This document shows positions 3,231 through 43,457 of a stretch of DNA of 48,461 bases, in pieces. This DNA comes from Methanomicrobiales archaeon (GTDB taxonomy: Archaea > Halobacteriota > Methanomicrobia > Methanomicrobiales > JACTUA01), in assembly GCA_035542895.1 (NCBI GenBank), contig DATKKN010000005.1, positions 1 to 48,461 on the forward strand. The letters are read 5' to 3'. The notes beneath the pieces are model-generated. The model searched no databases. It saw nothing but the letters and a program-made list of their open reading frames with translations, and was not told the DNA's origin. How positions within the stretch are numbered: the stretch's first letter is position 1; each line of letters begins with the position of its first letter. The translations under genes were made by a program, and so were the position numbers.

Positions 3231-3657
3231 ACCTGTACATGGGCGGGATGCATTTATTTTTGCCGGGAGGGCCGGGGCCTGGTCTTCCACTACGAGGTGA
3301 TGAAACGGGGACCTGCCATGGCAGGCAGCCGATGAAATCCCTTTCTGGGGGAAAAACCAGGGAATGGCATCCGGGTTCCGTGGGAGTCGGGGCCTCCGGG
3401 GGTGTCTTCTCCATGGAGAATTCTGCATCCGGCGCCGGGGGAGAAAAACCGGTATGTTCCACCGGTGAGGTTGAAACCTCTTCCTCCATTGCTGAAATGA
3501 GATTCAGTTGACCTGCCCCTATAAAATGGATAATATTCTCATATTCTTGTAAATAATTTCCACTTAATCAAAAAATCATTGAAATCGAAATAGAAATGAT
3601 TATATCTAGCCTCACAAATTAGATAGTGCGATGTGAGGCTGCCCGACGGGATTCCCC

Positions 3658-4573: not shown

Positions 4574-4633
4574 CGGGAAAATACCCCCACCCCACTCTGC
4601 GATTCTTGATTTCAACAATGAAATGGCTTTCGA

Positions 4634-5075: not shown

Positions 5076-5129
5076 GGAAAGAATAAAACAATATCTTTTT
5101 TAAGGCATACTATCAAGAGATTGTGTTTA

Positions 5130-6056
5130 ATGCAAACCGAATTTCCGGGGCCGGTTAACCCCAGGAGAATCGCGCTCGGATGGTTCCTCGTGGTTCTCTT
5201 TGCAACGGGCCTCTTTCTCCTGTTCACCCCCGAAACCTACATGAAGATCGATGCCATCTTCATCTGGGTCCTCACCTGCCTGGTCCTCCTCTACTTCTCG
5301 ACCCGAAAGATCACCCGGCTCACCCCGGGGAGAAAGATCCTGGTCATCGGTGCAGGGTTCCTCCTCTGTCTCCTGAGCATCCTCCGGATACCCCTCGGGG
5401 TCGGTCATACGCTCTATTCCATGGGCGATTTCACGGTTTTTCTCTCGGGGCTCGGCCTGATCCTCTTCGGGGCCCTGGGGTTCGGATCCTTCGTCATGCC
5501 CCTGCTCCTGCCCCTGGTGGCCGTCGAGGGATTCCAGGTCTATGATCTCTTCATCCGGCACATCGACTGGCTCACGGCACCCCTGGTCGCGGTGGACATC
5601 GGCATCGTATCCTCCCTCCTCCACCTTACCGGCATCCCGGTAGGCATCCAGGGGCAGGTGATCTCCTTTGTCTCCTCCACGGGGCTCCCCGTGTATCTTT
5701 CCATCGAAGGGGACTGCACGGGGCTCTGGTCCCTGGGCACCTTCACCATGGCGGTCATCATCGTGGCCGTGAGTTTTCCCCGGGCCTTCGATCTGCGGGG
5801 CATCCTGTACATTCTCCTCGGGTTCCTGGGAACGTACGCTGCGAATATCCTCCGGATCTACGTGATCATCCTGACCGGTTATTACTACGGTCTCAGCAAT
5901 GTGATGGAGCATACCCACATCCATATCGGCTGGCTCATCTTCACCGCATGGATGGTGTTCTTCTGGTACCTCTTCTTTGTGCGCCACGTCGGGATCTCCT
6001 TCACCTCGAAGGATGGCCGCCGGATTGCCGGCACCCGGGACCGGAAGGCCGGGTAA
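5130..6056 (+). CDS. Archaeosortase (exosortase/archaeosortase family transpeptidase), probably the PEF-CTERM-specific type
   Basis: Polytopic membrane protein carrying the family's signature positions: 'IEGDCTGLWSLG' (conserved Cys), 'ANILRIYVIILTG' (conserved Arg) and 'HTHIHIGWLIFTAW'. It is divergently adjacent to a PEF-CTERM protein. ATG at 5130; a TTG at 5121 is also possible. Confidence 0.85.
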   Translation: MQTEFPGPVNPRRIALGWFLVVLFATGLFLLFTPETYMKIDAIFIWVLTCLVLLYFSTRKITRLTPGRKILVIGAGFLLCLLSILRIPLGVGHTLYSMGDFTVFLSGLGLILFGALGFGSFVMPLLLPLVAVEGFQVYDLFIRHIDWLTAPLVAVDIGIVSSLLHLTGIPVGIQGQVISFVSSTGLPVYLSIEGDCTGLWSLGTFTMAVIIVAVSFPRAFDLRGILYILLGFLGTYAANILRIYVIILTGYYYGLSNVMEHTHIHIGWLIFTAWMVFFWYLFFVRHVGISFTSKDGRRIAGTRDRKAG

Positions 6057-7485: not shown

Positions 7486-8946
7486 TTACCGGTCCGGGTG
7501 CCTCCGGGTAATCCCGACCAGGTCCCTCACGATGTCCTTGCTTACGTACCCCGTGGCGTACGCGAGGGCAGGGAAGAGGATGATGGCGATGCCGATTCCC
7601 AGGAGGGGATGCGGCCTGAGGACCATGAGGAGGAGAACGGTGACAATGAAGCAACCGGCGAGCCTCCCGATCCGGTGCAGGATGACCTTCAGGGGGGTGA
7701 GGTCCTTGACGAGGGCGATGGTAAGGAGGGTGGAGATGATGAAGAGGAGGGTGTTCGAGATATAGGCCCCGAGGAACCCGTTCCCGAATCCCAGGGACCG
7801 GGACAGATCGATGAGATAGACGGTCAGGACGAAGAAGAGCGGGAGCATGGCGAGGGGAATCACCGCGATGATGGCATAGTCCTTCGCATCCGTGGCGCGA
7901 GAGAGGTTCAGGTTCGCGATGAAGACCTGGATGAAAATGAACAGGTACCCCACGGCCATGATGGGAAAGTACGTCGAGGCGTCCAGGTACGCCCGGGAGA
8001 AGAGTACCCGGACCAGGTATTCGGAATAGAGGGAGAGGGTGATGAAGATGAGGACCATGAGGGCGAACAGGGCCCGCGTGACATCGGCAAGCCCGCCCCG
8101 CCGGTAGATCCGTTCCGGGTCCGCCGAGGTGGCCTCGGGGACGGAGAGGAGGGTCATCGTGCCCATGGCAAAGAAGAAGAACGACCCCAGGGTGAGGGAC
8201 ACGTCAAAGTACCCCTGCCAGACGATGCCGAGGTCATGGCTGATGACCATCTTGATGAGGGCCTGGCCGAAGGTGTTCAGGGACCCGAAGATGAACAGGG
8301 CGATGCCGAAGGCAAAGATCTGCCGGGAGGGCCTGCGTATCGAGAGGATCGGGAGGTACTGGCGCCGGTATGTTCCTGAGAGGGCGAGGATGGCAAGGGG
8401 TATCACGTTCGCGAGGACAAAACCGATGAGGATGATCTCGAAGGACTGCATCCCTGCGAGGAGCAGGCCGGCGATGATGACGAGCCTTGCCACCGAGGGC
8501 AGCGCCATGGTGATCCCCGGGAAGGCGTACTGCCTGAGCCCCGTGTAGAGGGCCTCGAAATCGGCAAGGATGGTGAGGGAGAAGAGGGAAAAGATGATGA
8601 CCGCGTAGAACAGGTTCATGCGATCGAGGGGGATATTCAGGTAGGAAAAGAAGGGCTCCCGGAAGATGAAAAGCAGGGCCGAGAGGACGAGCCCGATGAG
8701 CATGCTCATGACCATCGAAAACCCGAAATAGTGCCTTCCCTCCTCGGAATGAGCGAGGATCTGCGGGAAATTCAGGGTGGTGACCAGCTGGAACACGCCG
8801 GGGAGTGTCAGGGCAAGCAGGGTGATGAGCCCGTACTCGTACGGGGTAATGGTATTTGCAAGCACGATCTTGGTCAGGACTCCTGACCCGCGCTGGAGAA
8901 GGACGAAAAAGATGAAGAGTCCGGAGTAAAACGTCAGCGTCTTCAT
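7486..8946 (-). CDS. MOP-superfamily polysaccharide/oligosaccharide flippase (Wzx/RfbX-like)
   Basis: About 486 aa with about 14 predicted TM helices. The N-terminus 'MKTLTFYSGLFIFFVLLQRGSGVLTKIVLAN' is typical of 'polysaccharide biosynthesis protein' flippases. I chose the ATG at 8946 over the ATG at 8988. Confidence 0.75.
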   Translation of the reverse strand: MKTLTFYSGLFIFFVLLQRGSGVLTKIVLANTITPYEYGLITLLALTLPGVFQLVTTLNFPQILAHSEEGRHYFGFSMVMSMLIGLVLSALLFIFREPFFSYLNIPLDRMNLFYAVIIFSLFSLTILADFEALYTGLRQYAFPGITMALPSVARLVIIAGLLLAGMQSFEIILIGFVLANVIPLAILALSGTYRRQYLPILSIRRPSRQIFAFGIALFIFGSLNTFGQALIKMVISHDLGIVWQGYFDVSLTLGSFFFFAMGTMTLLSVPEATSADPERIYRRGGLADVTRALFALMVLIFITLSLYSEYLVRVLFSRAYLDASTYFPIMAVGYLFIFIQVFIANLNLSRATDAKDYAIIAVIPLAMLPLFFVLTVYLIDLSRSLGFGNGFLGAYISNTLLFIISTLLTIALVKDLTPLKVILHRIGRLAGCFIVTVLLLMVLRPHPLLGIGIAIILFPALAYATGYVSKDIVRDLVGITRRHPDR

Positions 8947-9330
8947 GGAAGCTCCCTGTCGCCGGTCGTCAGCCGCGCGATCTGACACCGGCTGTCATGG
9001 TGTTGTATCTGTCTTCACTATCCGGGTCCCATCACCTTTCTGAATCATATCACATAAACCCATACCGTCCTCATTTCAGCATGGATCCACGCCCCCCGGC
9101 ACCCCATTCGAATATGCCCTTCCAGGTGCTCCGGATCCCCGCAGAAAACCTCCCTGCGGGCCGGAAGGGTGGTTCACTGCCCCCGAGCGTATGGGTAGAG
9201 ATATGTATTTCCTGTTCCCACTATAGGCAGGTGACCCGGGGGAACCGGAGAGCGACCGGACGGTTTCACGGTACCGAATCAAGGAACGAATCCGGGACCG
9301 GACCCTCTCAACGGAGAATCCCTGGTATCT

Positions 9331-12731: not shown

Positions 12732-14090
12732 TTACCGGGCGACCTTGGAAATCACGAAGAGCTGCTTCCCGGTTTTTGTCGCGGGGATATCGTCGGGGAA
12801 ATCCAGGTGTACCTGGGTGTTCTTCCCCATGTGCTCCTTCACGGCGAGAACGATCTGTTCGGAGTATTCCGGAAGGTAATTTTTGCCCCGTACGATTCTC
12901 ACGTCCAGGTGCCCCTGCCGCTCCTGGATCAGCTGGTACCTGCGGATCGAGTCCCGCTGTTTCATGGCGATATGCTCGAAGACATCGGTCAGGGGAAGGC
13001 CGGAGATGACGCTCCCGTCCTCGTGGCGCACCATGTTGATGATCCTGCCCTGGATGGATTTGAAGAGCGGGAGCCCCCGCCCGCAGGCACACCGCTCGCC
13101 GGTCCCGATGGCGGTATCCCCGGTGCGGTACCTGATGAAGGGCATGGCATAGTTGCAGAGATCGGTCGACACGATTTCACCGAGGGAACCGTCCGGGACC
13201 CGTTCCCCGTCCTGCACGAGCTCGAGCACCGATTGCTCGGGGCAGAGATGGTACCCCGCATGCTCCCCGCACTCCATGGCGGCCGCTCCGCCGTCCCGGC
13301 ACCCGTACTCATCGAAGATCCGGGATTGGAACACCTCCTCGATGAGGGATCGCTGGGGGGGCAGCAGGGTCTCGGCGGTTGTAAAGATCGCCACCGGGGT
13401 GATGGGGCTGCCCCCGTGTTCCCTGAGGTAATGAGCGAGGGAGAAGATGGCAGAGGGGTACCCCCTGATAAACCTCGGTGAGTACTTCCTGATCCGGTCA
13501 GTGTACGACGCGACCGTGGCCTCGTTCATGTTGAGGGATGTGAGGGCAAGGTTCCTTTCGAACAGGTACCTCGCCCGTTTCTGGAGGCTCATTTCATTGG
13601 GGACGAGGGAGGACCCCCCGAGGGTCATGTAGCGTTCGCCCAGGCGGTATCCTGCCCAGCCCCAGCCCCTGAACCCCGAGGCCCAGAGCATCGAGATGCT
13701 CGCGAGGCTCGTGTAATACCTCAGGGGTTCGCCCGTGGATCCGCTCGTGGTATTGAGGAACGGCCGGTGATTACGGTAGTCCACGGCGAGGAGTTCGGGG
13801 GCATGGTTCCGGATATCCTCCTTCGTGAGCAGCGGGAGCTTCCCGAGATCCTCGGCCGTCCTGATGTCCTGGTCGGAGAGGCCCCTCTCCCTGAAAATCC
13901 GGCGGTAGTAAGGGACCCGGGAATAAGCGTGCCTGACCAGGGACCGGAGTCTCTCGTCCTGCAACTCCCGGAGCTTTCCGGGCTTCCACCACTGGGACTT
14001 CTCGAGGAAAGCAAGATCCCGCTGGATGGTGGTCCCCTTGACGAATTCCATGCAGGGAAAGACGATCTGCCTGAGGAGATGATGGTACAT
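12732..14090 (-). CDS. Adenylate-forming enzyme of the phenylacetate-CoA ligase / CapK / F390-synthetase family
   Basis: AMP-binding motifs 'TSGSTGEP' and 'YRTGD'. The 'CACGRGLP' Cys pair and the N-terminal 'VPYYRRIFRERGL...DLGKLPLLTKEDI' are typical of PaaK/CapK-like proteins. Confidence 0.85.
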   Translation of the reverse strand: MYHHLLRQIVFPCMEFVKGTTIQRDLAFLEKSQWWKPGKLRELQDERLRSLVRHAYSRVPYYRRIFRERGLSDQDIRTAEDLGKLPLLTKEDIRNHAPELLAVDYRNHRPFLNTTSGSTGEPLRYYTSLASISMLWASGFRGWGWAGYRLGERYMTLGGSSLVPNEMSLQKRARYLFERNLALTSLNMNEATVASYTDRIRKYSPRFIRGYPSAIFSLAHYLREHGGSPITPVAIFTTAETLLPPQRSLIEEVFQSRIFDEYGCRDGGAAAMECGEHAGYHLCPEQSVLELVQDGERVPDGSLGEIVSTDLCNYAMPFIRYRTGDTAIGTGERCACGRGLPLFKSIQGRIINMVRHEDGSVISGLPLTDVFEHIAMKQRDSIRRYQLIQERQGHLDVRIVRGKNYLPEYSEQIVLAVKEHMGKNTQVHLDFPDDIPATKTGKQLFVISKVAR

Positions 14091-22681: not shown

Positions 22682-23737
22682 TCAAACCAGGGACCCGATC
22701 CTCTCGGACAGGGGTTTCACGATACCCATGTATCCCCTCATCGCGCAGCTCCCGAGGAAACCTGCCTTGCGCGATACGTACCGGGTGCGCAGGTCCAGGT
22801 TCGGGATCTTGGCCGAGTAGTACCGGGAGAGGCGCTGGTTTCCGGCGGCGCCCAGGATCGAATACCAGGTGTAGCCCCGCGCGGCGGCATCCTTCAGGGT
22901 CTCCCAGTTCAGGAGCTCATTGGGCGACGGCGAGATGGCCTGGGACGGCTTCGGGTTCCCAATCCAGCTGGTCATCTCGTCCCGCGTGAGCTCCAGTTCA
23001 ATGGAGCCGGTCACGATCCTCCCCCCGTACTCGACCGCGAAGACCTTGATGCTCTCGGGGAATTCCCGGAGGAGCTCGGTCAGATACGGTTCCGGGACGT
23101 TGACCGACTTGCCCTGTTCCCGGTATCTCTGGACGAGGAGGTCGTATATAGCCCTGAGCTCCTGGACCCCCCCGGTCCGGATGGACATCCCTATCTTGAG
23201 GGCCTTCCTGAGATCGGTCCGCTGGGTTCCCCGGAGGTCCTTCCACAGCTGGTCCGGGCCTTCCCGGATGTCTGCGATATAATCGAACATGGTATCGTTG
23301 GTATATCCCATCCACCTGAAGGTACGGACATCGATCATGGAGGGAGAATGGGCTATCAGGCTGTAATCGGGGCGCAGGGCCGTGGTGATATACTCCATGG
23401 CCACCCTCTGCATTTCCATCCGGTTCTGCTCCCTCCTCGAGGATTTCTGCCGTGTCCCTGCCCCGAGGACCGGCCCGAGGAACCTGATGGCCAGGCGCGG
23501 CGGGGGCGAGAACAGCAGCCTCATGAGGGGGACCGTCCTGAGAAAGACCGGGAAGATCCCGGTCATTTCCTCCCCCTCGGTGGAGACGAGCGGAAACAAA
23601 CGGGCGCCGCCGGCGTACTTCTCGGCGATCCTCAGCCACTTCCACCGGTGGAAGACCGTCCCGTCGGGTGAGTTCGCGTTCAGGTCATCCCATTCCCCGG
23701 CATCCGACTCCGTTGCAAGGGCGATTCTAGCTCCCAT
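22682..23737 (-). CDS. FemAB-like GNAT-fold acyl/aminoacyl transferase (paralog 2); last gene of the 5-gene operon
   Basis: 'SPDGTVFHRWKWLRIAEKY', 'LVQRYREQGK' and 'IKVFAVEYGGRIVTGSIEL' parallel the protein at 9331..10344. Its start overlaps the upstream gene by 11 nt. Confidence 0.7.
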   Translation of the reverse strand: MGARIALATESDAGEWDDLNANSPDGTVFHRWKWLRIAEKYAGGARLFPLVSTEGEEMTGIFPVFLRTVPLMRLLFSPPPRLAIRFLGPVLGAGTRQKSSRREQNRMEMQRVAMEYITTALRPDYSLIAHSPSMIDVRTFRWMGYTNDTMFDYIADIREGPDQLWKDLRGTQRTDLRKALKIGMSIRTGGVQELRAIYDLLVQRYREQGKSVNVPEPYLTELLREFPESIKVFAVEYGGRIVTGSIELELTRDEMTSWIGNPKPSQAISPSPNELLNWETLKDAAARGYTWYSILGAAGNQRLSRYYSAKIPNLDLRTRYVSRKAGFLGSCAMRGYMGIVKPLSERIGSLV

Positions 23738-25379
23738 GGTATCCCCCGGAAAAGACGATGGTCATTTCCATAGCCCGGTCACCGCCGGCCGGTTGCACGT
23801 CGATGGTGCCCGGGCTCCGGGCAACGGGGCTCCCGCCCAGGACCTCCTTCAGCTCCATCCCTTCCGGGACATGGATCCGGACCGGCTGAAGGGCACCCCG
23901 GATCATCCGGATCCCGAGCCGGTCTCCCTCGAGGTGGCACTCGGTCCTCGCCCCGTTCCTCGCCACCCACCAGCGGGCGATATCCCTCGCGCTCGCGATC
24001 CAGGCGTTCTCCTTCCCCGCGCGCGAGAGGATCTGCCGGTACGCATCGCCCCAGCCCGGGTATTCGTGGGGGTTGAACACGGCATGGTGCCAGAGGAGGG
24101 TCAGGACACCCCCGCACCCCCGCACCGTCCCTGCAATCTTCACCCACTCCTCCTGCCAGCGGGGATTCCTGAGAAGGGCGATATCCTCGATGACGAGAGG
24201 CAGCTCGAGCAGGTTCAATGCCCGCCCTTCGGCAGGAAGGAACGGGGAGAAGGGAAAGCAGGTTCCCCACCGGAACCCGATCCGGTCATTGAACCCGAGG
24301 GTCGTGTCGCAGAGGAGTCCCAGCCCCTCGTGATGGAGCCAGGTCTCGGGGATCCTGAGGTTCAGGTTATGCTGCCTCGTGGTGTACACCGGCTCGCCGA
24401 GGACCTTCTCGAGGGATTTCTTCTCTCCCTCGAGGGTCGGGAGGTCATCATAGGAATTGAACGAGCCATGGAGGCCGACGTCCCATCCCGATGCGGAGAG
24501 CCTCCGGATCAGGCTGCTCAGCTTCGGATCGTCCCACCGGTACCGCCTGCCGAGGTGCCTCCACGAGGAGCTCTCCAGGGGCCGCACCCTCGCGGTTTCA
24601 TGGAGGAAGAAGAGGGATGACCGTGCCCCCAGCCCGTCCTCGAGAGACATAAGGTCATCAAAGGCCCAGTACGGCTCCTTCCCGGAGAGCCGGTCGAGGA
24701 GAGAGAGCCCCTGGAAATACAGCCCCCGGACATCCCCCCGGGCGGCGAGCTTGAGCGGGGTGGTGATCCACTGGTAGGTCTTCTTCACCTCGTCGACGTC
24801 ATGGGTGAGGCAGACCGCGAACGCCCTGCCCTGCGGCCAGAACGGCAGGGACACGAGGGGGACACGGAGTTTCCCGTACCCCGCAAGGATCAACCTGAAG
24901 AGGAGATCCTCGAGGAGATCCGCGACCGGAAGCGACGCCATGCCGCGCTTCAGCCCCTCGTCAGGGCCTTTCCAGACCGGTTCCAGCCGGCCGGAGAGAA
25001 GGGCCCCGATCTCGCCGAAGGGATCGAACCCGATGGAGATCCCGGCCCCGGTTCCGGTGATGCACGGGAACCGGTCCCCGTTCCCGCCCTCCCACCAGCC
25101 CAGGATCCTCCCGTCGTCCCCGGAATCAGAGGGTGGTGCGAACAGCGGGATCTTCCCTTCGCTGACCCTGAGGTATCCTGGAATCCCCGGAGCCCCGTCC
25201 CCGGGATGGTCCTGCGCGGCCCTGATGGTGAACCCGGAGTCCGGATCCCCCCCGCACTTCAGGGTGACCCCGGAGTGGCCCGAGGGATCGCTCTTCACCG
25301 ATAACCCGTACTTCCCGAAGAAGTGGCGCAGGCCGAATCCGGTCCGGGCGTCCCCCGACGGGTAAAGGCAGGTGAGCAC
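23727..25379 (-). CDS. Polysaccharide deacetylase (NodB/CE4-like) with an N-terminal domain of about 180 aa of unknown function
   Basis: 'FAVCLTHDVDEV' is an Asp-Asp type motif 1, and 'WDVGLHGSFNSY' is the metal-His motif. The GTG start at 25379 lies 3 nt after the stop of the upstream gene. Confidence 0.7.
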   Translation of the reverse strand: MLTCLYPSGDARTGFGLRHFFGKYGLSVKSDPSGHSGVTLKCGGDPDSGFTIRAAQDHPGDGAPGIPGYLRVSEGKIPLFAPPSDSGDDGRILGWWEGGNGDRFPCITGTGAGISIGFDPFGEIGALLSGRLEPVWKGPDEGLKRGMASLPVADLLEDLLFRLILAGYGKLRVPLVSLPFWPQGRAFAVCLTHDVDEVKKTYQWITTPLKLAARGDVRGLYFQGLSLLDRLSGKEPYWAFDDLMSLEDGLGARSSLFFLHETARVRPLESSSWRHLGRRYRWDDPKLSSLIRRLSASGWDVGLHGSFNSYDDLPTLEGEKKSLEKVLGEPVYTTRQHNLNLRIPETWLHHEGLGLLCDTTLGFNDRIGFRWGTCFPFSPFLPAEGRALNLLELPLVIEDIALLRNPRWQEEWVKIAGTVRGCGGVLTLLWHHAVFNPHEYPGWGDAYRQILSRAGKENAWIASARDIARWWVARNGARTECHLEGDRLGIRMIRGALQPVRIHVPEGMELKEVLGGSPVARSPGTIDVQPAGGDRAMEMTIVFSGGYHGS

Positions 25380-25382
25380 CCT

Positions 25383-26477
25383 TCAAACCCCTCCATTCCC
25401 GGTCTCGCCACGGAGGCTTCCGGGGTAATTCTCGATGAACCGCGTCATCCAGGAGGTGACATCGATCTTCTCCGCAAGGAGCCTTTCCCTCCTTGCGAGC
25501 CAGGTCTCCCTCGAGCCCTCTTCCCCGAGGATCGCGAGGGCCTTTGCAAAGGCCTCTTCCTGGGTCGAAAAGAAATAGAGGAGCTGGTACCGGTCCCGCA
25601 GTTCCAGGAAGTTCCCGCTCCCGGCGCCCGTCGCCTCTCCCGACCGGGTCGCCTCGATGTGGATGGCGGGGGTCCCGAGGACCGCGGCCTCGGCCGCCAT
25701 CGTCCCGCCCTCGCCGATATAGAGCCGCGCGAAGGCGAGGAGGGAATGGATCTGTTCCGGGGAAATCCGGATCCGGTATTTCTCGAGGTCGGGGTGGAGC
25801 GGCCGTTCCGAGGAGATGAGCACCTTCCCGAAACGCTCGAGGGACCGGACGAACTCCAGCTCCGATCCCGTCCTGATTCCCCTGAGGGAGGTGTCATGGA
25901 TCGCGCCCCAGGAGATGAACCTGAGAACGACGTATTCACCGGGGGAGAGGCCCATCCCGCCGAGGGATGAGGGGTCGGGGGTGAAATGACGGGGGTGCAG
26001 GTAGGCGAGTTCCTTGTACCCGCGGTACGTGACATGCTTCCCCGGGTCGACGGGCTCCCGGAAGCACGACGGGGTGACGATGGTGGTTGCAAACGGAAAG
26101 GTGAGCAGGCTCGCCACCCGCACTCCCTCGGTATCCGTGAAGATGACCGAGGGTTTCCTCATCAGTGCGGCCACGTGGGCGATGTAGGGATTATGGATCC
26201 CGATCAGGATGTCCGGGTTAAACCCCCTCGCGATCCCCCAGAGTTTTGCATCAATCTGGAAGAGGGAGAATGCCTTTTTCAGGACGCTTTTCTGGATGGC
26301 CCCCCGGTTGATGTACGGGAGCCCGTACTTATCGAGAAGGGCGAGGGTGACCTCCTTGTCCCGGGCCGTGATGAGGATCTCGTGCCCCCGGGATTGCATC
26401 TCCCCGATGAAACCCCTGAAGAAATGCACATGCGCCGGGTGGGCGACATCCACGAGCAGTTTCACGGGCTCACGCAC
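25383..26477 (-). CDS. DUF354-family protein (GT-B / UDP-GlcNAc 2-epimerase-like fold; putative glycosyltransferase)
   Basis: 'LLVDVAHPAHVHFFRGFIGEMQSRGHEILITARDKEVTLALLDKYGLPY' is the characteristic DUF354 N-terminus. About 364 aa. Overlaps the upstream PIG-L gene by 8 nt. Confidence 0.75.
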   Translation of the reverse strand: MREPVKLLVDVAHPAHVHFFRGFIGEMQSRGHEILITARDKEVTLALLDKYGLPYINRGAIQKSVLKKAFSLFQIDAKLWGIARGFNPDILIGIHNPYIAHVAALMRKPSVIFTDTEGVRVASLLTFPFATTIVTPSCFREPVDPGKHVTYRGYKELAYLHPRHFTPDPSSLGGMGLSPGEYVVLRFISWGAIHDTSLRGIRTGSELEFVRSLERFGKVLISSERPLHPDLEKYRIRISPEQIHSLLAFARLYIGEGGTMAAEAAVLGTPAIHIEATRSGEATGAGSGNFLELRDRYQLLYFFSTQEEAFAKALAILGEEGSRETWLARRERLLAEKIDVTSWMTRFIENYPGSLRGETGNGGV

Positions 26478-27102
26478 CCAGCCTCATCACCCATTTGATG
26501 ACCTCGAAGGCCTCGGCATACTTCTCCTCGATCTGGACGCCCCGGGTCAGGGCAAGGCCCCGGATGAAGTCGCTGCTCAGGTAGGCGCGGTACCTCTGGG
26601 TCCGGTAACATTTCAGCGCGTCGATCTTCTTCTGCACCTGGTGCTCCTTCAGGGAGATGAAGGCAAGGGTATGAAAGGTAATGTTGTTCCAGGGCTGTTC
26701 GTACCCGAGGATGGTGCACTGCTTGAAGGCCCGGAGGGTCTCCTCCCTGGTCGTTTTATGGTCCTGGTGGGTATCGTACGAGGAGGGCGTGAAGACGATT
26801 TCGGGCTGGATCTGCGAGCGGAGGGAGATGAGCGTGTCGAGGATCGACTGCCTGAGCCTCGGGAACTCCCGGACCTCGTACTCGAAGAGGATCGGCTCGG
26901 TGATCCCGAGGATCCTCGTTGCCTCCCTGACCTCCCTTTTCAGGATATCGCAGGGATACTCGGGCGGTATCGATTTCTCGCACGAGGACAGGGCCACGTA
27001 CGAGACCTCGTCCCCCTCCTCGATGAACCGGGCCACCGAGGCGCCGCAGCCGAGTTCGCCGTCGTCGGTATGGGGACTGATGACCAGGATTTTACGCGCC
27101 AT
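26470..27102 (-). CDS. PIG-L / LmbE-family N-acetylglucosaminyl de-N-acetylase
   Basis: Zinc-site motifs 'ISPHTDDGELGCG' and 'YDTHQDHK'. 210 aa. Overlaps the upstream gene by 11 nt. Confidence 0.85.
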   Translation of the reverse strand: MARKILVISPHTDDGELGCGASVARFIEEGDEVSYVALSSCEKSIPPEYPCDILKREVREATRILGITEPILFEYEVREFPRLRQSILDTLISLRSQIQPEIVFTPSSYDTHQDHKTTREETLRAFKQCTILGYEQPWNNITFHTLAFISLKEHQVQKKIDALKCYRTQRYRAYLSSDFIRGLALTRGVQIEEKYAEAFEVIKWVMRLGA

Positions 27103-28672
27103 CGCCTGCCTCCAGGGCCTTCATGGCCTGATGGATCCTCCGGGTGCTTTCGGGAGATCCGGACCCGCACGGGTACAGGATATCTCCCTCCATGAGCGGG
27201 AACTGCCCTTCCCCGGGATCGATCCCTGCGGTTTCCGCCGCGGTTTTCCAGCTTTCCCTGATGTGTTCGGGACCGCAGGCGAGGAAGAGATCGAGCATCG
27301 AGGGGGTTATCGTGAAAACCTTCTTCGCCATGAGTTCCTGGACCGACGAGTTCAGGAGCCGCCCCTCCAGGCGCTGTATGGCCTTCCCTTCCCCGCCTCC
27401 GGCCCGGAGATCCCTGATCTGGCGTTCCAGGCCGGTCCGGTAGTCCCGTATCCGGTCAGCAAGGGACGGATCGGTGACGTCCTCCTCCCGCAGCGGGAAG
27501 GTTCGCGTCAGCTCGCGGAGCGCCCGCCGGTGGGCGATGCCCAGGTAATAATCCGCCGATCTCCAGGCGAGGGTGACGGGTTCGTGAAAACCCATCGCCC
27601 GCGAGATTGCCCCGGCGAGTTTCCCGTACCTGAGCCCTCCACCGGTTCCCGAGATAAAGAGGCTTGTCCCGAGCCCCTCTGAAAAGATGATATTCCGGGC
27701 TACCGCGTTCGGGCTCATCCGGGGATACAGGCCATCGAGATCGATGAGCCCCGGTCCCCCGGGGAACCGGTGTTCTCTCCCGCACACGGGGCACGTGCCG
27801 CCCGGTGGAGAGGATGGAGGGGCCGCGAGACGCACCTTCCCGCCGCACTGGCACTCGTACCAGAACGGGATATCATCTTCGGTTACGGGGGCGATCCCGG
27901 GTCCCGCGTGGGCGAGCAGGGCATTGAACCGGGCGTTATATTCCCCGAGGCCGGTGAGGACCCGGGCGGATGCCTCCCTGAAAAGGCCGGCCTTCTGGAC
28001 ATCGGTATACCGGAAGAAGTGGAGGGAAAGCCCCAGGATCCCGGAACAGATCCCTGCAAAGGCAAAGGCGTTCAGATCCGAAAATGTACGGGCGCGGGAA
28101 TAGCTTGACTCGAGGATTCTGGTCAGGAGACTCATCCGGTCCCTGAATACCTCCGGGTCGATCCTGAGAATGCTCATGCTGCTCAGGTACATCGCTTCTA
28201 TTTTCCCGATTTCCGCCTGGAAACGTTCCTCCGGGGGCTTTCCGAGGGTATGAAAACATTTCCACCGGTCCCGGTCCGGGATCCTGAACCCGATGTTTTC
28301 GCTCCCCTGCTTGTTGAAGGCGGGAACCTGGTTCTGGGCCAGGTAGGACGCGGTGGAGAGGTTATAGTCCGCGAACCCGAAGGCCGCGACGGCGTCCGAC
28401 CCGAGGGAGCGGAGCTGCCTCCCGAGGAGATCGAGGAGAAAGGCCTTCTTCCAGACACCGGGATAGGGGAGAAAATTCGGCTGGTGCCCGGACTCGAGGA
28501 CGATGGTCCGCTCCGTGACCGGGTTCCCTTCCGTCTCCGGTATGCCGGCACCGGTGCTGAAGGACCGGGAAATACCAAGGATCCCTTCAAGGTTCTTCAC
28601 CTGGCGGGGATCCAGGATATGGTAATTGCTGAGACCCGGAATCAGATCGGCCATTCGCATACGGTCCGCCAT
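27092..28672 (-). CDS. BshC-like protein (putative amino-acid:aminosugar ligase) with an inserted CxC...CxxC zinc ribbon
   Basis: 'VLESGHQPNFLPYPGVWKKAFLL...AAFGFADYNL' parallels B. subtilis BshC 'VVGGQQAGLLTGPLYTIHKIISI...IFWVAGEDHDL'. 'SPNAVARNIIFSEGLGTSLFISGTGGGLRYGKL' parallels BshC '[33 protein letters not shown]'. Zinc ribbon: 'ECQCGGKVRLAAPPSSPPGGTCPVCG'. The comparison was made from memory by eye, not with an HMM. Confidence 0.6.
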   Translation of the reverse strand: MADRMRMADLIPGLSNYHILDPRQVKNLEGILGISRSFSTGAGIPETEGNPVTERTIVLESGHQPNFLPYPGVWKKAFLLDLLGRQLRSLGSDAVAAFGFADYNLSTASYLAQNQVPAFNKQGSENIGFRIPDRDRWKCFHTLGKPPEERFQAEIGKIEAMYLSSMSILRIDPEVFRDRMSLLTRILESSYSRARTFSDLNAFAFAGICSGILGLSLHFFRYTDVQKAGLFREASARVLTGLGEYNARFNALLAHAGPGIAPVTEDDIPFWYECQCGGKVRLAAPPSSPPGGTCPVCGREHRFPGGPGLIDLDGLYPRMSPNAVARNIIFSEGLGTSLFISGTGGGLRYGKLAGAISRAMGFHEPVTLAWRSADYYLGIAHRRALRELTRTFPLREEDVTDPSLADRIRDYRTGLERQIRDLRAGGGEGKAIQRLEGRLLNSSVQELMAKKVFTITPSMLDLFLACGPEHIRESWKTAAETAGIDPGEGQFPLMEGDILYPCGSGSPESTRRIHQAMKALEAGDGA

Positions 28673-28795: not shown

Positions 28796-29191
28796 CTATT
28801 TTTCGGAGCCCCGGGGTTCCCCGAGGTGTTCCCGGTTCTCAGGCAGCTGCGGGCTTCCCGCCTGCCTCCGGAAGATCTTGAGGTCAACCCACTGGCGCAA
28901 CCGGCTCCCCCGGTATCCGGCCTGGATCATCCAGGCGAGCGCGGCAAGGGCGGTCACGATGGCGATGGTGAAGAGGATATTCGTCGCCGTGACATCGATG
29001 CCGAGGAAGATATCGGCAAAGAGAACCGACGTCGTTACCGAAACGATGGAAAGGACGAGAGAGAGGGCGATGCGTTCGAACCTCCTGAGCCTGTCGCCTG
29101 TCGGGTAGAGGGCCCAGGTGAGGGCATACCCGGGGACGAAGAGAACGAGAATGTACCCCGCGATGGTTCGGAACAGGGTAACCGGGTCCAT
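28796..29191 (-). CDS. Small membrane protein corresponding to the N-terminal (TM) part of DUF1616
   Basis: 'ILVLFVPGYALTWALYP...ERIALSLVLSIVSV' matches the conserved DUF1616 N-terminus. There are three or four TM helices. ATG at 29191; GTG at 29200 is possible. Confidence 0.6.
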   Translation of the reverse strand: MDPVTLFRTIAGYILVLFVPGYALTWALYPTGDRLRRFERIALSLVLSIVSVTTSVLFADIFLGIDVTATNILFTIAIVTALAALAWMIQAGYRGSRLRQWVDLKIFRRQAGSPQLPENREHLGEPRGSEK

Positions 29192-29241
29192 AGATACCAC
29201 GATATTTTAATCCCCGGAAGGATTAATTATTCCGATTGGCC

Positions 29242-30213
29242 TCACCCGGGTATCAGGAAACCCGCGATGCAGAAGATACCCGTGAGCCCGAACATGGCGA
29301 GGGTCGCCTGGCGCTCGGTGAGGGGGAGGATCGAGGGGAGCACCCACTTCAGGGTGTACCGGTTCGGCACCTCGAGGGTCCCGTCCGGCCGTACCCTCCC
29401 GAACTTTTCGAAGGGCACCCGCTTCATGTTCAGCTTCCAGTACACCCAGAGCAGGAAGTTCACCGTGTGGGGGATGAGCATCACGAAACCGGAAACGATG
29501 AAGCCTTCCACCACGCAGGTCGCGCCGATGGCCGCTCCCACGGAGAGCGCCCCGATATTTCCCCAGAAGACCTGCGCGGGGTACTTCTCGAAGAGGAAGT
29601 ACCCGGCGAGGGCCCCCGCCAGGCAGAGGATGAAGAGCACCTTGAGGATATCCCCTGAGAACCAGGACTTTGCGAGGAGCGTGGCGAGGATCATGAGGGA
29701 GAGGCCGGGCGCGAGGCCGTTGAACCCGGAGTGCATGTTGACGAGGTTCGCAACCACCGGGACAAAGGTCGGGATCAGGAGCTGGAGGTACAGGATGTTC
29801 AGGTCGACCGGGCCGAGGAAGGGAATCAGGAGGGGAACCACCGGCACAAAGGGGATGAGCGGGTAGGAGCAGTAGTAGAGGAGGATCAGCTTGGCGGTCC
29901 TCCCGATATCGATCATGTCGTCAACAAGCCCGAACAGGGCAAAGAGCATGATGACCATGATCATCGCGTGGTTCTCGGGCCGGATGTGTTTTGAGTAAAA
30001 GAGTGAGATGATCGACATGGAGAAGAGGGCGACGAGGAGGAGGATCAGCCCCCCGTTTATGGCGACCTCGGGCCTGTCGGGTTTGTACATGTCCCGGGCA
30101 ACGAAGCCCCCCGACTTCATCGCCCGGATGCTCCGGGGCATCACGAGGAGCATGAGCCCGAAGGGCATGAGGATAAAGAACAGGAACATGAAGATAAGCG
30201 GGAGATACTCCAT
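29242..30213 (-). CDS. GT4-family polyprenyl-phosphate HexNAc-1-phosphate transferase (AglH/WecA/MraY-like)
   Basis: 'LFGLVDDMIDIG' (DDxxD) and 'VANLVNMHSGFNGLAPG' (NxxNxxDGxDGL-type) motifs in a polytopic protein. ATG at 30213; GTG at 30219 is the alternative. Confidence 0.8.
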   Translation of the reverse strand: MEYLPLIFMFLFFILMPFGLMLLVMPRSIRAMKSGGFVARDMYKPDRPEVAINGGLILLLVALFSMSIISLFYSKHIRPENHAMIMVIMLFALFGLVDDMIDIGRTAKLILLYYCSYPLIPFVPVVPLLIPFLGPVDLNILYLQLLIPTFVPVVANLVNMHSGFNGLAPGLSLMILATLLAKSWFSGDILKVLFILCLAGALAGYFLFEKYPAQVFWGNIGALSVGAAIGATCVVEGFIVSGFVMLIPHTVNFLLWVYWKLNMKRVPFEKFGRVRPDGTLEVPNRYTLKWVLPSILPLTERQATLAMFGLTGIFCIAGFLIPG

Positions 30214-30516
30214 GGGCACAATAATTTTCTATCCTGGCATATATATTTTATGATTGATGTTTTCTCGCGTGGATCGAAAATATCCATTTAAATTGCAGGA
30301 AATACAATTCCCGGTCGGGTCCACATACTGTGGAGATACTTCCCGGGGCTTGAATTGGGCAAAACCGTTTCAAAGAGGTCCAAAACGGATGAATCGCCCC
30401 GGACACCTGTATCTGAGCTGGGTGTGCAGGGAGTGCCCCGGAGCAATGTATCATGCCCGGGGCATCGGCATCGATACCTTCCCCGGGCTTAATACCTGTC
30501 ATGGCGATGATCCGGT

Positions 30517-43199: not shown

Positions 43200-43405
43200 G
43201 ATACCTTCACAAGTGGTTTGTTTATCATCCCTATATATTTTTTGAATTATTTATATAATAGATTTTAAGCGATGATTGAGTATTCATCCACTCATCCTCG
43301 CACCGGTGATGAAAGTCCCCAGCTTTGTCCCTGATAATCATACAGAGATCTGGGACTCCTCGCCAAACCGAGACATAATTTGACACCTATTGAGAATATA
43401 CGTGG

Positions 43406-43415: not shown

Positions 43416-43457
43416 ATTGAGGGAATACCTATAAGACCGGCCGCAGATAACTACGCG

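What the first reader, a model, noticed from the sequence alone, without database searches (positions are those of the whole stretch)
22682..28672. Translationally coupled BshC-like / PIG-L / DUF354 / CE4 / FemAB-like operon: thiol-cofactor-style logic inside an archaeal glycan locus
Seen in the sequence: five minus-strand genes are packed with overlapping or abutting start and stop codons. Three junctions overlap, by 11, 8 and 11 nt, and the DUF354-to-CE4 junction has a 3-nt gap. The first gene product shares two collinear motif blocks with Bacillus BshC (GHQPNF...PGVWKK versus GGQQAG...GPLYTIHK, and SPNAVARN...FISGTGGGLRYGKL versus SNNVVTRP...[14 protein letters not shown]). The second carries the PIG-L/LmbE zinc motifs (PHTDD, HQDH), the same family as BshB and MshB. 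The third is DUF354, which as I recall belongs to the GT-B/epimerase-like superfamily, the fold class of BshA and MshA. Established knowledge: bacillithiol and mycothiol are made by a GT-B glycosyltransferase, then an LmbE-type de-N-acetylase, then a Cys ligase. BshC ligase activity has, to my knowledge, not been reconstituted in vitro. Inference: this cassette makes a GlcN-type free amine and acylates it with an amino acid or another carboxylate. The product could be a soluble low-molecular-weight compound or, given the flanking flippase, priming transferase and second deacetylase/FemAB genes, a decoration on a lipid-linked surface glycan. I am not aware of a characterised archaeal pathway of this type.
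Basis: partly seen in the sequence, partly recalled or inferred. Interest (0 to 1): 0.85.

Follow-up and report, generated by a model that had tools for sequence, protein, structure and literature searches.

The report
Sugar-aminoacylation operon partnered with archaeosortase C
A tightly packed archaeal operon pairs two sugar de-N-acetylases with two amino-acid-adding enzymes, one a previously unrecognised relative of the bacillithiol enzyme BshC, and it is the conserved genomic neighbour of the archaeosortase C / PEF-CTERM protein-sorting system, so it may build the still-unknown molecule to which that sortase attaches surface proteins.

Summary
Five minus-strand genes (28672 to 22682) have junctions of -11, -8, +3 and -11 nt.

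- **27092-28672:** no Pfam or NCBIfam hit, but its model (pLDDT 93.6) has BshC (4WBD) as best solved-structure match (E 7e-15, TM 0.56-0.58). Divergent relatives pass Pfam's BshC threshold.
- **26470-27102:** PIG-L.
- **25383-26477:** DUF354 with a GT-B fold.
- **23727-25379:** resembles the deacetylase VimE.
- **22682-23737:** resembles FemAB/VimA-type aminoacyl transferases.

The unit starts upstream with a GT4 priming transferase and a DUF1616 membrane protein.

**Synteny.** It is conserved across Methanomicrobiales, Methanocellales, Methanoperedens, Syntrophoarchaeum, Archaeoglobi, Altiarchaeota and Micrarchaeota.

**New here.** The cassette is the reciprocal neighbour of archaeosortase C and PEF-CTERM proteins. 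The window itself has an archaeosortase (5121-6056) and a PEF-CTERM-like ORF (4022-4618).

**Best reading.** A lipid-linked glycan has its N-acetyl groups replaced by aminoacyl groups, possibly providing the amine acceptor for archaeosortase. A soluble thiol cofactor is unlikely.

All functions are inferred and nothing biochemical was tested. I rate it a new variant of a known kind, interest about 0.7.

The parts
29242..30219 (-). Polyprenyl-phosphate HexNAc-1-phosphate transferase (Pfam Glycos_transf_4; AglH/WecA/MraY family). First gene of the co-directional unit.
   Evidence: Pfam PF00953 E 4.1e-24, 85.8 bits. Weak MraY hits in NCBIfam. Lies upstream of the cassette, on the same strand, in 15 of 30 well-flanked relatives.
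28796..29200 (-). Small DUF1616 membrane protein, conserved immediately upstream of the ligase gene.
   Evidence: Pfam PF07760 E 2.2e-14. Immediately upstream of the ligase in 29 of 53 loci. Fused to the ligase in P0013.
27092..28672 (-). BshC-fold, class-I-aminoacyl-tRNA-synthetase-like putative ATP-dependent ligase. It belongs to a new archaeal family with a HIGH-like GHQPN motif, a CxC...CxxC zinc ribbon and a GxGGGLRYG motif.
   Evidence: No Pfam, NCBIfam or PDB sequence hit. AF2 model pLDDT 93.6. Foldseek top hit BshC 4WBD, E 7.3e-15; second hit class I LysRS. Invariant residues listed. The family has 429 representatives. Divergent members hit PF10079 at up to 38.6 bits.
26470..27102 (-). 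PIG-L/LmbE-family zinc de-N-acetylase.
   Evidence: Pfam PF02585 E 1.8e-19, 71 bits. Nearest NCBIfam model is BshB1 at 68.5 bits, below its cutoff of 182.5. PHTDD and HQDH motifs present. Immediately downstream of the ligase in 33 of 48 loci.
25383..26477 (-). DUF354 protein with a GT-B fold: a predicted nucleotide-sugar enzyme, either a glycosyltransferase or a 2-epimerase-like enzyme.
   Evidence: Pfam PF04007 E 4.7e-15. AF2 model pLDDT 89.9. Foldseek matches GT1 glycosyltransferases, MurG and UDP-GlcNAc 2-epimerases, E 5e-12 and higher, TM up to 0.68.
23727..25379 (-). VimE-like putative sugar de-N-acetylase of the CE4/deacetylase superfamily, with an extra N-terminal region.
   Evidence: NCBIfam NF053580 VimE E 1.3e-19, 70 bits, below the equivalog cutoff of 440. 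The Geoglobus orthologue gives a weak Polysacc_deac_1 hit. Family-conserved residues H193 D194 D196 H304 H337 H431.
22682..23737 (-). FemAB/VimA-like putative aminoacyl transferase (two-GNAT architecture).
   Evidence: Pfam Acetyltransf_6 E 3.5e-11 and FemAB 24.9 bits against a cutoff of 24. NCBIfam pepcterm_femAB TIGR03019 E 5.8e-17, below its cutoff. This is the family VimA belongs to (PMC7468200).
9331..10344 (+). Second FemAB-like paralogue.
   Evidence: Pfam Acetyltransf_6 1.4e-12 and FemAB 28.5 bits. TIGR03019 E 1e-13. Relatives carry 1-4 such paralogues next to the cassette.
7486..8988 (-). Wzx-type polysaccharide flippase candidate.
   Evidence: Pfam Polysacc_synt 29.3 bits against a cutoff of 28.2.
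5121..6056 (+). Exosortase/archaeosortase family protein; among the archaeal types it is closest to ArtC.
   Evidence: Pfam Exosortase_EpsH 77.8 bits against a cutoff of 25.7. TIGR04178 signature 46 bits against 23. ArtC model 43.8 bits, below 100. Cys/Arg/His are invariant in alignment A4.
4022..4618 (-). Secreted protein with a PEF-CTERM-like sorting signal (…VPVPEFP-TVAVSIMVISGMVVAT-QYLKTRT); a candidate archaeosortase substrate.
   Evidence: C-terminal architecture found. The NCBIfam PEF-CTERM model scores only 12 bits, E 0.2. The same signal recurs in 20 related loci, 31 observed against 0.1 expected.
2421..3428 (-). BacA/UppP-type polyprenyl-diphosphate phosphatase (carrier-lipid recycling).
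   Evidence: Pfam BacA E 4e-41; NCBIfam. Also lies near the cassette in Geoglobus.
12732..14090 (-). PaaK/F390-synthetase-like adenylate-forming enzyme. It may belong to the locus; its role is unknown.
   Evidence: NCBIfam NF045666 E 8.2e-46 and PaaK 2.3e-36, both below their cutoffs.

Best explanation
**What it is.** The five genes are the distal part of a seven-gene minus-strand unit running from 30219 to 22682. In order:
- GT4 priming transferase
- DUF1616 membrane protein
- BshC-fold ligase
- PIG-L de-N-acetylase
- DUF354 GT-B enzyme
- VimE-like de-N-acetylase
- FemAB/VimA-like aminoacyl transferase

This unit is the conserved biosynthetic companion of the archaeosortase C / PEF-CTERM protein-sorting system.

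**Proposed mechanism.**
1. On the cytoplasmic face, GT4 makes a polyprenyl-(di)phosphate-linked GlcNAc.
2. PIG-L removes its N-acetyl group.
3. The BshC-like enzyme, held at the membrane by DUF1616, activates a carboxylate with ATP, most likely an amino acid. It then amide-links it to the freed sugar amine, as MshC does and BshC is thought to do.
4. DUF354 adds, or supplies, a second N-acetylated sugar. This would parallel the MraY/MurG and Alg7/Alg13-14 pairs.
5. The VimE-like enzyme removes that sugar's N-acetyl group.
6. One or more FemAB-like enzymes replace it with an aminoacyl residue, presumably from aminoacyl-tRNA.
7. The flippase exports the product, and BacA recycles the carrier.
8. 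The exposed alpha-amino group is the favoured candidate for the nucleophile to which the archaeosortase transfers PEF-CTERM proteins.

**Shown versus inferred.** Shown: the folds and homologies, the operon structure, the conserved synteny, and the reciprocal association with ArtC and PEF-CTERM. Inferred: every substrate, the order of the steps, the identity of the acyl groups, the lipid carrier, and the acceptor role.
For: **Operon structure.** Junctions of -11, -8, +3 and -11 nt.

**Fold and family assignments.**
- BshC is the top structural match of the ligase, with class I LysRS second. Transitive Pfam BshC hits occur in divergent relatives, which also sit beside PIG-L.
- PIG-L and DUF354 exceed Pfam thresholds. 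DUF354 is GT-B, near MurG, GT1 and epimerases.
- The last two genes hit VimE and pepcterm_femAB. In P. gingivalis that pair makes an N-seryl sugar, and the T9SS sortase links protein C termini to it (PMC7468200).

**Membrane context.** GT4 lies upstream. DUF1616 is adjacent and is fused to the ligase in P0013. A flippase and BacA are in the window.

**Synteny.** Among 30 species-representative loci with at least 5 kb on both sides: PIG-L 24, DUF354 22, VimE-like 21, FemAB-like 21, DUF1616 21, GT4 15, archaeosortase 15.

**Sortase link.**
- The Geoglobus neighbour is a bona fide ArtC, 136 bits against a cutoff of 100.
- In Archaeoglobi, ArtC and a PEF-CTERM protein lie inside the cassette.
- 31 C-terminal PEF + TM + basic-tail signals were found in these loci against 0.1 expected.
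- Starting instead from ArtC in metagenomes, 13 of 20 loci of at least 5 kb contain the ligase and 18 of 20 contain a PEF-CTERM ORF.
- The window itself has an archaeosortase and a PEF-CTERM-like ORF.

**Precedent.** artA-pssA-pssD synteny led to an amine-bearing lipid being proposed as the ArtA nucleophile (PMC7157517).
Against: - There is no biochemical or genetic evidence for any step.
- The ligase has no significant direct sequence match to BshC. BshC's own ligase chemistry is unproven, so 'ATP-dependent amino-acid ligase' is an inference from fold.
- DUF354 could be an epimerase rather than a transferase; its best TM-scores are to 2-epimerases.
- PIG-L enzymes also act on soluble glycosides.
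- In the window, the archaeosortase is about 16.6 kb from the end of the operon. It scores below the ArtC cutoff, and the PEF-CTERM model scores below threshold.
- Half of the well-flanked loci show no archaeosortase within 10 kb.
- BacA implies that the carrier is released. That fits transfer of the glycan to a polymer or protein at least as well as a permanent lipid anchor.
- The Asgard-type relatives of the ligase sit with Wbp-like nucleotide-sugar enzymes, with no sortase in the two loci seen.
Confidence: 0.5

Rival explanations
1. The cassette decorates an ordinary surface glycan with amino-acid substituents. This could be an N-linked glycan, a capsule or exopolysaccharide, or a sheath or S-layer glycan. 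The archaeosortase and PEF-CTERM proteins are co-located only because they end up in the same surface layer, as originally proposed for PEP-CTERM proteins and EPS. The aminoacyl group is then a decoration and not a transpeptidation acceptor.
For: GT4 is the family that primes archaeal N-glycans and bacterial O-antigens. A flippase and BacA are present, and BacA implies release of the carrier. Related loci carry several GT2 glycosyltransferases, a hexapeptide acetyltransferase and a DegT aminotransferase, all typical of polysaccharide loci. Half of the well-flanked loci have no archaeosortase within 10 kb.
Against: The association with ArtC and PEF-CTERM is reciprocal and very tight. In Archaeoglobi, ArtC and a PEF-CTERM gene lie inside the cassette. 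The only characterised VimE/VimA-type pair makes a sortase acceptor (PMC7468200). No AglB or polymerase was recognised in the window.
Confidence: 0.28
2. This is a GPI-like route. DUF354 plays the PIG-A role and puts GlcNAc on archaetidylinositol or another membrane lipid. PIG-L de-N-acetylates it. The BshC-like ligase then aminoacylates the GlcN, giving an amine-bearing glycolipid anchor for PEF-CTERM proteins. GT4 serves a separate glycan.
For: PIG-L is the GPI-pathway de-N-acetylase family. The ligase / PIG-L / DUF354 triad is more constant than GT4: 24 and 22 loci against 15 of 30. From my own recollection, glucosaminyl archaetidylinositol is a known methanogen lipid; this was not checked here.
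Against: The top 50 structural matches of DUF354 are GT1, MurG and epimerases. None is a retaining GT4 enzyme such as PIG-A, BshA or MshA. GT4 is co-directional and directly upstream wherever it is present. No inositol-lipid genes were seen in the window.
Confidence: 0.1
3. One reading: DUF354, PIG-L and the BshC-like protein act like BshA, BshB and BshC. They would make a soluble low-molecular-weight aminoacyl-glucosamine compound, such as a thiol cofactor.
For: All three proteins share the fold class of the bacillithiol and mycothiol enzymes. The nearest NCBIfam model to the PIG-L protein is BshB1. The triad is syntenic.
Against: The context is consistently membrane and surface: GT4, DUF1616 (fused to the ligase in P0013), a flippase, BacA, VimE/VimA-like genes, archaeosortase and PEF-CTERM proteins. 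The scores are far below the BshB and BshC equivalog cutoffs. DUF354 resembles GT1, MurG and epimerases, not BshA or MshA. No archaeon has been found with a complete bacillithiol pathway (bioRxiv 10.1101/2025.07.06.663066). No thiol-specific feature was found; the four cysteines form a zinc-ribbon insertion.
Confidence: 0.05

Closest known systems
Bacillithiol BshB/BshC and mycothiol MshB/MshC (LmbE-type de-N-acetylase followed by a class-I-aaRS-like Cys ligase)
   Same: An adjacent PIG-L/LmbE deacetylase is paired with a BshC-fold ligase. BshC is the best solved-structure match over the full length, and MshC also appears in the hit list. The conserved motif blocks are collinear.
   Different: No BshC HMM match. 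The motif is GHQPN where BshC has GGQQ. There is an added Cys4 zinc ribbon like that of class I LysRS. The context is archaeal, membrane and surface. There is no BshA/MshA-type GT4 enzyme. The product is unknown, and a thiol is unlikely.
Wbp/Vim pathway of Porphyromonas gingivalis: VimE deacetylase plus VimA make 2-N-seryl-3-N-acetylglucuronamide, the linking sugar used by the T9SS sortase PorU (PMC7468200)
   Same: Genes 23727-25379 and 22682-23737 hit the VimE model and the pepcterm_femAB family that VimA belongs to. They are genetically linked to a C-terminal sorting transpeptidase. The authors of that paper themselves speculated that exosortase systems use such a sugar.
   Different: Scores are below the equivalog cutoffs. 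No Wbp genes are in the window. The sortase here is an unrelated membrane archaeosortase, and there is no outer membrane or LPS. A second deacetylase/ligase pair is present as well.
FemXAB / lipid II pentaglycine / sortase A, together with the MraY-MurG (Alg7-Alg13/14) pairing
   Same: A polyprenyl-P HexNAc-1-P transferase is paired with a compact GT-B enzyme. One to four FemAB-like paralogues are present, and some relatives add an ATP-grasp ligase. A sorting transpeptidase is encoded nearby.
   Different: There are no Mur ligases, no MurNAc and no peptidoglycan. Amino acids would be attached through the sugar's 2-amino group after de-N-acetylation. All of this is inferred.
XrtA/PEP-CTERM exopolysaccharide loci of bacteria, and the ArtA-PssA-PssD lipid-anchoring system of archaea (PMC7157517)
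   Same: An exosortase-family enzyme, proteins with a tripartite C-terminal signal, and FemAB-family and sugar-modifying genes lie in one locus. For ArtA, synteny pointed to an amine-bearing acceptor.
   Different: The ArtC-type system is uncharacterised. The partner genes here (BshC-fold ligase, PIG-L, DUF1616, DUF354) are not the ones known from XrtA or ArtA systems.
GPI-anchor biosynthesis (PIG-A, PIG-L, transamidase)
   Same: A PIG-L de-N-acetylase acts early on a lipid-linked GlcNAc. A transpeptidase-like enzyme replaces a C-terminal hydrophobic signal with a glycolipid amine.
   Different: No PIG-A-like GT4 enzyme, inositol-lipid gene or ethanolamine-phosphate gene was seen. The amine would come from an aminoacyl group added by a ligase.

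Membership tests
BshC (Pfam PF10079 Rossmann-like_BshC + PF24850; NCBIfam thiol_BshC) | Sequence matches the family HMM above its threshold | tested here: not met
   No Pfam or NCBIfam hit at E<=1 for the window protein, and BshC is not among the families listed for the 50 aligned relatives. hhalign against a BshC alignment gives E 0.2. Only divergent Asgard-type relatives reach PF10079: 38.6 and 28.6 bits against a cutoff of 27.
BshC (Pfam PF10079 Rossmann-like_BshC + PF24850; NCBIfam thiol_BshC) | Overall fold: class-I-aaRS-like Rossmann core with a connective-peptide insertion and a C-terminal helical/coiled-coil domain | tested here: met
   AF2 model pLDDT 93.6. Foldseek top hit 4WBD: E 7.3e-15, 560 aligned columns, TM 0.58/0.56, clearly ahead of LysRS-I.
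BshC (Pfam PF10079 Rossmann-like_BshC + PF24850; NCBIfam thiol_BshC) | Signature motifs GGQQxGLxxGPLYxxxK and FIAGPGExxYW | tested here: inconclusive
   The positions align, and G, Q, K, R and two G residues coincide. The motifs themselves differ: ESGHQPNF...VWKK and FISGTGGGLRYG.
BshC (Pfam PF10079 Rossmann-like_BshC + PF24850; NCBIfam thiol_BshC) | Works with an LmbE-type deacetylase to make Cys-GlcN-malate | not testable with these tools
   An adjacent PIG-L gene is conserved, but the product cannot be determined in silico.
PIG-L / LmbE de-N-acetylases (PF02585) | HMM above threshold and the zinc-binding motifs (A/P)H(P/T)DD and HxxH | tested here: met
   71 bits against a cutoff of 28.2. 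PHTDD and HQDH are present. It is not an equivalog of BshB1, BshB2 or MshB: 68.5 bits against 182.5.
DUF354 (PF04007) / GT-B superfamily | HMM above threshold; two-Rossmann-domain GT-B fold of nucleotide-sugar enzymes | tested here: met
   56 bits against a cutoff of 22. Model pLDDT 89.9. 265 PDB matches at E<=1e-3, led by GT1 glycosyltransferases, MurG and UDP-GlcNAc 2-epimerases. Whether it is a transferase or an epimerase is not resolved.
VimE (NCBIfam NF053580) / CE4 deacetylases | Equivalog-level HMM score; Asp/His metal-binding motifs | tested here: not met
   70 bits against a cutoff of 440, over residues 188-451. No Polysacc_deac_1 hit for the window protein, and 20.4 bits against 23.1 for the Geoglobus orthologue. 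Conserved HDxD and His residues are compatible with a deacetylase. It is a relative, not a member.
FemAB / pepcterm_femAB (PF02388, PF13480, TIGR03019) | HMM above threshold | tested here: met
   Acetyltransf_6 43.9 bits against 22, and FemAB 24.9 against 24, which is marginal. The TIGR03019 equivalog cutoff is not met: 61.7 against 260. Use of aminoacyl-tRNA was not testable.
Archaeosortase C / PEF-CTERM system | Exosortase-family membrane protein with a Cys/Arg/His triad, plus proteins ending in PEF + TM helix + basic tail | tested here: inconclusive
   The window archaeosortase passes Pfam (77.8 against 25.7) and TIGR04178 (46 against 23), but not the ArtC model (43.8 against 100). The window PEF-CTERM candidate has the tripartite architecture, but the model scores 12 bits against 23. 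Relatives clearly meet both criteria: Geoglobus ArtC scores 136 bits, and there are 31 PEF signals.

The most novel reading that the evidence does not exclude
The cassette builds the long-sought acceptor of an exosortase-family enzyme. This would be a lipid-linked glycan carrying amino acids in place of N-acetyl groups, functionally an archaeal counterpart of lipid II pentaglycine, the P. gingivalis seryl linking sugar, or a GPI anchor. Archaeosortase C would transfer the cleaved C termini of PEF-CTERM surface proteins onto its free alpha-amino group. The BshC-fold ligase would then be the first member of that fold with a defined role outside thiol cofactor synthesis.
Probability: 0.3. Interest if true: 0.9.

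Novelty: new variant of a known kind. Interest (0 to 1): 0.7.

Why it matters
- **An open question becomes testable.** What exosortases and most archaeosortases attach their substrates to has been open since these systems were described. Only ArtA has a proposed acceptor, an ethanolamine lipid (PMC7157517). A conserved gene set tied reciprocally to ArtC and PEF-CTERM gives a concrete chemical hypothesis. It also predicts a mass signature: a C-terminal peptide plus an aminoacyl-hexosamine.
- **A fold gains a new context.** The BshC fold is extended into a sizeable, unannotated archaeal family: 429 cluster representatives at 50% identity, with no Pfam or NCBIfam model. This family keeps a more canonical HIGH-like histidine. 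It may therefore be a more tractable route to the still-unclear chemistry of BshC.
- **A published suggestion may need revisiting.** 'BshC homologues' reported in Asgard archaea have been taken as hints of bacillithiol synthesis (PMC7278568). The two Asgard-type loci examined here instead pair the ligase with PIG-L and Wbp-like sugar enzymes, so those proteins may belong to this glycan-modifying family.
- **A recurring strategy.** De-N-acetylating a sugar and then aminoacylating it may be a general way to make transpeptidation acceptors in both bacteria and archaea.

Tried and rejected
- **Direct HMM tests of 27092-28672 against BshC.** Pfam, NCBIfam and PDB sequence searches (single sequence and profile) gave nothing relevant. 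The only PDB profile hits were zinc-ribbon proteins matching the Cys4 insertion.
- **Profile-profile comparison.** hhalign of the family against BshC alone and against a 20-sequence BshC alignment was collinear but not significant: E 0.021 and 0.2. The homology claim therefore rests on fold and on transitive hits.
- **WbqC lead.** Ten of 50 relatives weakly hit Pfam WbqC (best E 2.6e-4) and nine hit class I LysRS. A Streptomyces operon with GT4, WbqC, lmbE and murG exists (PMC10404621). I could not obtain WbqC sequences or functional data, so this remains unresolved.
- **PDB sequence searches** for DUF354, the VimE-like protein, the FemAB-like protein and the 1351-aa membrane protein gave nothing.
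- **tRNA genes.** None are in the window.
- **PEF-CTERM model on the window ORF.** It scored below threshold, so I relied on the sequence architecture and a regex scan with a control.
- **Reverse scan set-up.** A broad archaeosortase alignment was too diverse to seed a metagenome scan. A narrower ArtC-type alignment worked.
- **Literature.** Haft et al. 2012 (PMC3256604) is not held, so I cannot exclude that the ArtC neighbourhood was noted there. Searches for DUF354, DUF1616, ArtC/PEF-CTERM and BshC + archaea found no description of this cassette.
- **Considered and rejected: the ligase is a true aminoacyl-tRNA synthetase.** The best structural match is BshC, with LysRS-I well behind (E 2.8e-9, TM 0.40-0.42), and only one relative marginally reaches a class I LysRS Pfam model.

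Full report
**1. The observation.** The window is an entire 48,461-bp contig of a Methanomicrobiales metagenome-assembled genome. It carries five consecutive minus-strand ORFs at exactly the stated coordinates:
- 27092-28672, 526 aa
- 26470-27102, 210 aa
- 25383-26477, 364 aa
- 23727-25379, 550 aa
- 22682-23737, 351 aa

The recomputed junctions are -11, -8, +3 and -11 nt, and purine-rich stretches precede several starts. A GT4 gene (29242-30219) and a small DUF1616 membrane-protein gene (28796-29200) lie directly upstream on the same strand, separated by 41 and 123 nt.

**2. The BshC-like gene.** The 526-aa protein has no hit in Pfam, NCBIfam or PDB sequences. It belongs to a family of unannotated archaeal proteins. 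An exhaustive profile search finds 429 representatives at E<=1e-3 among 1.84 billion cluster representatives. Fifty aligned members share three conserved features:
- an invariant ESGHQPNF...G.WKK block
- a CxC...CxxC zinc ribbon
- a GxGGGLRYG block

An AlphaFold2 model built on that alignment is confident (pLDDT 93.6, pTM 0.93). Its best match among solved structures is B. subtilis BshC (4WBD): E 7.3e-15, 560 aligned columns, TM 0.58/0.56. Class I LysRS follows (E 2.8e-9). Other class I synthetases and MshC come much further down.

I verified the BshC sequence against PDB and built a BshC alignment. The profile-profile comparison is not significant (E 0.2).

A transitive sequence link does exist. 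A divergent 550-610-aa branch of the family includes a Promethearchaeota protein. Its members match the family profile at E 1e-41 to 1e-87, and two of them pass Pfam's Rossmann-like_BshC threshold (38.6 and 28.6 bits against 27).

So the protein is a remote homologue with the BshC fold, but it is not a BshC family member. Some relatives also weakly match class I LysRS (over the zinc-ribbon region in the one relative examined) and WbqC.

**3. The other four genes.**
- **26470-27102** is a PIG-L/LmbE deacetylase (71 bits). Both zinc motifs are present. BshB1 is its nearest NCBIfam model, but far below the cutoff.
- **25383-26477** is DUF354. Its model (pLDDT 89.9) is a GT-B fold matching GT1 glycosyltransferases, MurG and UDP-GlcNAc 2-epimerases; a UDP-2,3-diacetamido-glucuronate 2-epimerase is among them, and TM reaches 0.68. 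No BshA-, MshA- or PIG-A-type GT4 enzyme is in the top 50. The literature likewise predicts a glycosyltransferase of obscure function (PMC4520260).
- **23727-25379** matches the NCBIfam model for VimE, a UDP-diacetamido-glucuronate deacetylase (E 1.3e-19, below the equivalog cutoff). It has family-conserved HDxD and His residues.
- **22682-23737** is FemAB/Acetyltransf_6. Its best NCBIfam hit is the XrtA/PEP-CTERM-associated FemAB family.

In P. gingivalis, VimE and VimA (which belongs to that same FemAB family) convert an N-acetyl sugar into 2-N-seryl-3-N-acetylglucuronamide. The T9SS sortase joins protein C termini to that seryl amine. The authors speculated that exosortase systems might do likewise (PMC7468200).

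**4. Synteny.** A scan of one genome per GTDB species gave 56 loci. They come from Methanomicrobiales, Methanocellales, Methanosarcinales/Methanoperedens, Syntrophoarchaeum, Alkanophaga, Archaeoglobi, Altiarchaeota and Micrarchaeota. Among the 30 loci with at least 5 kb on both sides:

| Neighbour | Loci of 30 |
|---|---|
| PIG-L | 24 |
| DUF354 | 22 |
| VimE-like | 21 |
| FemAB-like (1-4 copies) | 21 |
| DUF1616 | 21 |
| GT4 | 15 |
| Hexapeptide acetyltransferase | 13 |
| ATP-grasp ligase | 7 |

Nearly all are on the ligase's strand. PIG-L directly follows the ligase in 33 of 48 loci. One relative (P0013) is a DUF1616-ligase fusion, which argues that the ligase works at the membrane. This rests on a single cluster from one assembly. 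The Asgard-type relatives also sit next to PIG-L, together with WbpA-, WbpB- and WbpE-like enzymes.

An exosortase-family gene lies within 10 kb of the ligase in 15-16 of the well-flanked loci. In Archaeoglobi it directly follows PIG-L, and in Geoglobus it scores as bona fide archaeosortase C (136 bits against 100).

I scanned every ORF of at least 90 aa in the window and 61 loci for a C-terminal P[EDG][FP] + hydrophobic stretch + basic tail. This found 31 signals. All 31 read PEF, and they lie in 20 loci; only 0.1 were expected from internal control windows. In Archaeoglobi a 315-348-aa PEF-CTERM protein is encoded inside the cassette, between ArtC and DUF354.

The reverse test starts from ArtC-type sequences in metagenome contigs. 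Of 20 loci of at least 5 kb, 13 contain the ligase and DUF1616, 12 PIG-L, 10 GT4 and 18 a PEF-CTERM ORF. Most of the exceptions are truncated on the relevant side. Some of these contigs duplicate the MAG contigs, so the counts are not fully independent.

The window itself encodes:
- an archaeosortase at 5121-6056 (Pfam 77.8 bits; exo_archaeo signature 46 bits; ArtC model below cutoff)
- divergently beside it, a secreted protein (4022-4618) ending VPVPEFP-TVAVSIMVISGMVVAT-QYLKTRT (the curated model is below threshold)
- a flippase candidate, a second FemAB-like gene, BacA, a PaaK-like adenylating enzyme and several LVIVD/PKD surface proteins

**6. Interpretation.** The operon contains two 'remove N-acetyl, add an acyl or aminoacyl group' pairs. 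One is PIG-L with the BshC-fold ligase. The other is the VimE-like deacetylase with the FemAB-like transferase. Each has a characterised precedent: BshB/BshC and MshB/MshC for the first, VimE/VimA for the second.

Two further genes resemble the MraY/MurG and Alg7/Alg13-14 pairings: the priming transferase and the compact GT-B enzyme. The context is membrane and surface throughout.

I therefore favour a lipid-linked glycan whose N-acetyl groups are replaced by amino acids. Given the reciprocal linkage to ArtC and PEF-CTERM, its free amine is a strong candidate for the archaeosortase nucleophile. This would be analogous to lipid II pentaglycine for sortase A, the seryl linking sugar for PorU, and archaetidylethanolamine for ArtA (PMC7157517).

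None of this is demonstrated. The substrates, the step order, the acyl donors and the acceptor role are all inference. DUF354 may be an epimerase. BacA suggests the glycan may leave its carrier. Half of the loci show no sortase within 10 kb.

Three rivals are retained:
- a decorated surface glycan or EPS that does not act as an acceptor
- a GPI-like inositol-lipid route

**7. Novelty.** No paper in the searchable library describes this cassette or its link to ArtC. Haft et al. 2012 could not be read. The individual enzyme logics are known. The combination, the new BshC-fold family and the sortase partnership appear to be undescribed.

Verdict: a real and conserved feature, a new variant of a known kind, with interest about 0.7.

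Noticed in passing
window 14222-18277 (-): A 1351-aa protein with an N-terminal multi-pass membrane region, a CarboxypepD_reg-like domain and a Pro/Thr-rich tail. It has no confident family; there is a faint PMT_2 (GT-C) hint at E 0.9. It sits between the PaaK-like gene and the LVIVD surface protein. It could be a glycan transferase or polymerase for this locus.
   Followed up: partly
window 10289-12676 (+) and 18463-21714 (-): Two large LVIVD-repeat / beta-propeller surface proteins flank the locus; the second also has He_PIG and cadherin-like Ig domains. The 1083-aa protein ends in a hydrophobic helix with no PEF motif or basic tail, so it is not an obvious archaeosortase substrate.
   Followed up: partly
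L061 8001-9755 and L062 4949-6649 (relatives P0437, P0408): A divergent 550-610-aa branch of the ligase family includes a Promethearchaeota (Asgard) protein, and members reach Pfam's BshC threshold. In the two loci examined the ligase lies next to or near PIG-L, with UDP-sugar dehydrogenase, oxidoreductase and aminotransferase genes and no sortase. 'BshC homologues' reported in Asgard archaea (PMC7278568) may be of this kind.
   Followed up: partly
P0013 (relative from a Logan assembly, 712 aa): A natural fusion of the DUF1616 membrane domain (residues 1-98, 50% identical to window 28796-29200) with the ligase (residues 194-710, 44% identical). It is a single cluster, so a gene-calling artefact is not excluded.
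   Followed up: yes
L002 12404-13555, L004 12695-13867, L001 14112-15266 and others: Many related cassettes add an ATP-grasp ligase, a PHP-domain protein and a hexapeptide acetyltransferase, along with up to four FemAB-like paralogues. This suggests a longer peptide-like decoration in some lineages. The window lacks the ATP-grasp and PHP genes.
   Followed up: partly
L009 (record titled Deltaproteobacteria bacterium SpSt-1226): This contig carries the full archaeal cassette, with 63-73% identity to the window's GT4 and PIG-L proteins. It is probably an archaeal contig mis-binned into a bacterial MAG.
   Followed up: no
Literature: PMC10404621, Fig. 2: Streptomyces tRNA-ProX operons encode a dedicated ProRS, a GT4, a WbqC-family protein, LmbE and MurG. 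This looks like a bacterial parallel of 'glycosyltransferase + WbqC/BshC-like + LmbE + GT-B', here with its own tRNA and synthetase. Ten of 50 relatives of the window ligase weakly hit Pfam WbqC.
   Followed up: partly
window 12732-14090 (-): A PaaK / coenzyme F390 synthetase-like adenylate-forming enzyme (NCBIfam E 8e-46, below cutoff; no Pfam hit) lies within the surface-glycan locus. It is a possible alternative acyl-activating enzyme.
   Followed up: no
window 43380-46883 (+): Two T2SSF-domain (type IV pilus / archaellum platform-like) genes, one fused to Big_1/invasin Ig domains, lie next to PKD-like proteins. This looks like a separate surface-appendage cluster.
   Followed up: no
window 92-1216 (+): A fusion of a universal stress protein domain with a GNAT acetyltransferase.
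   Followed up: no
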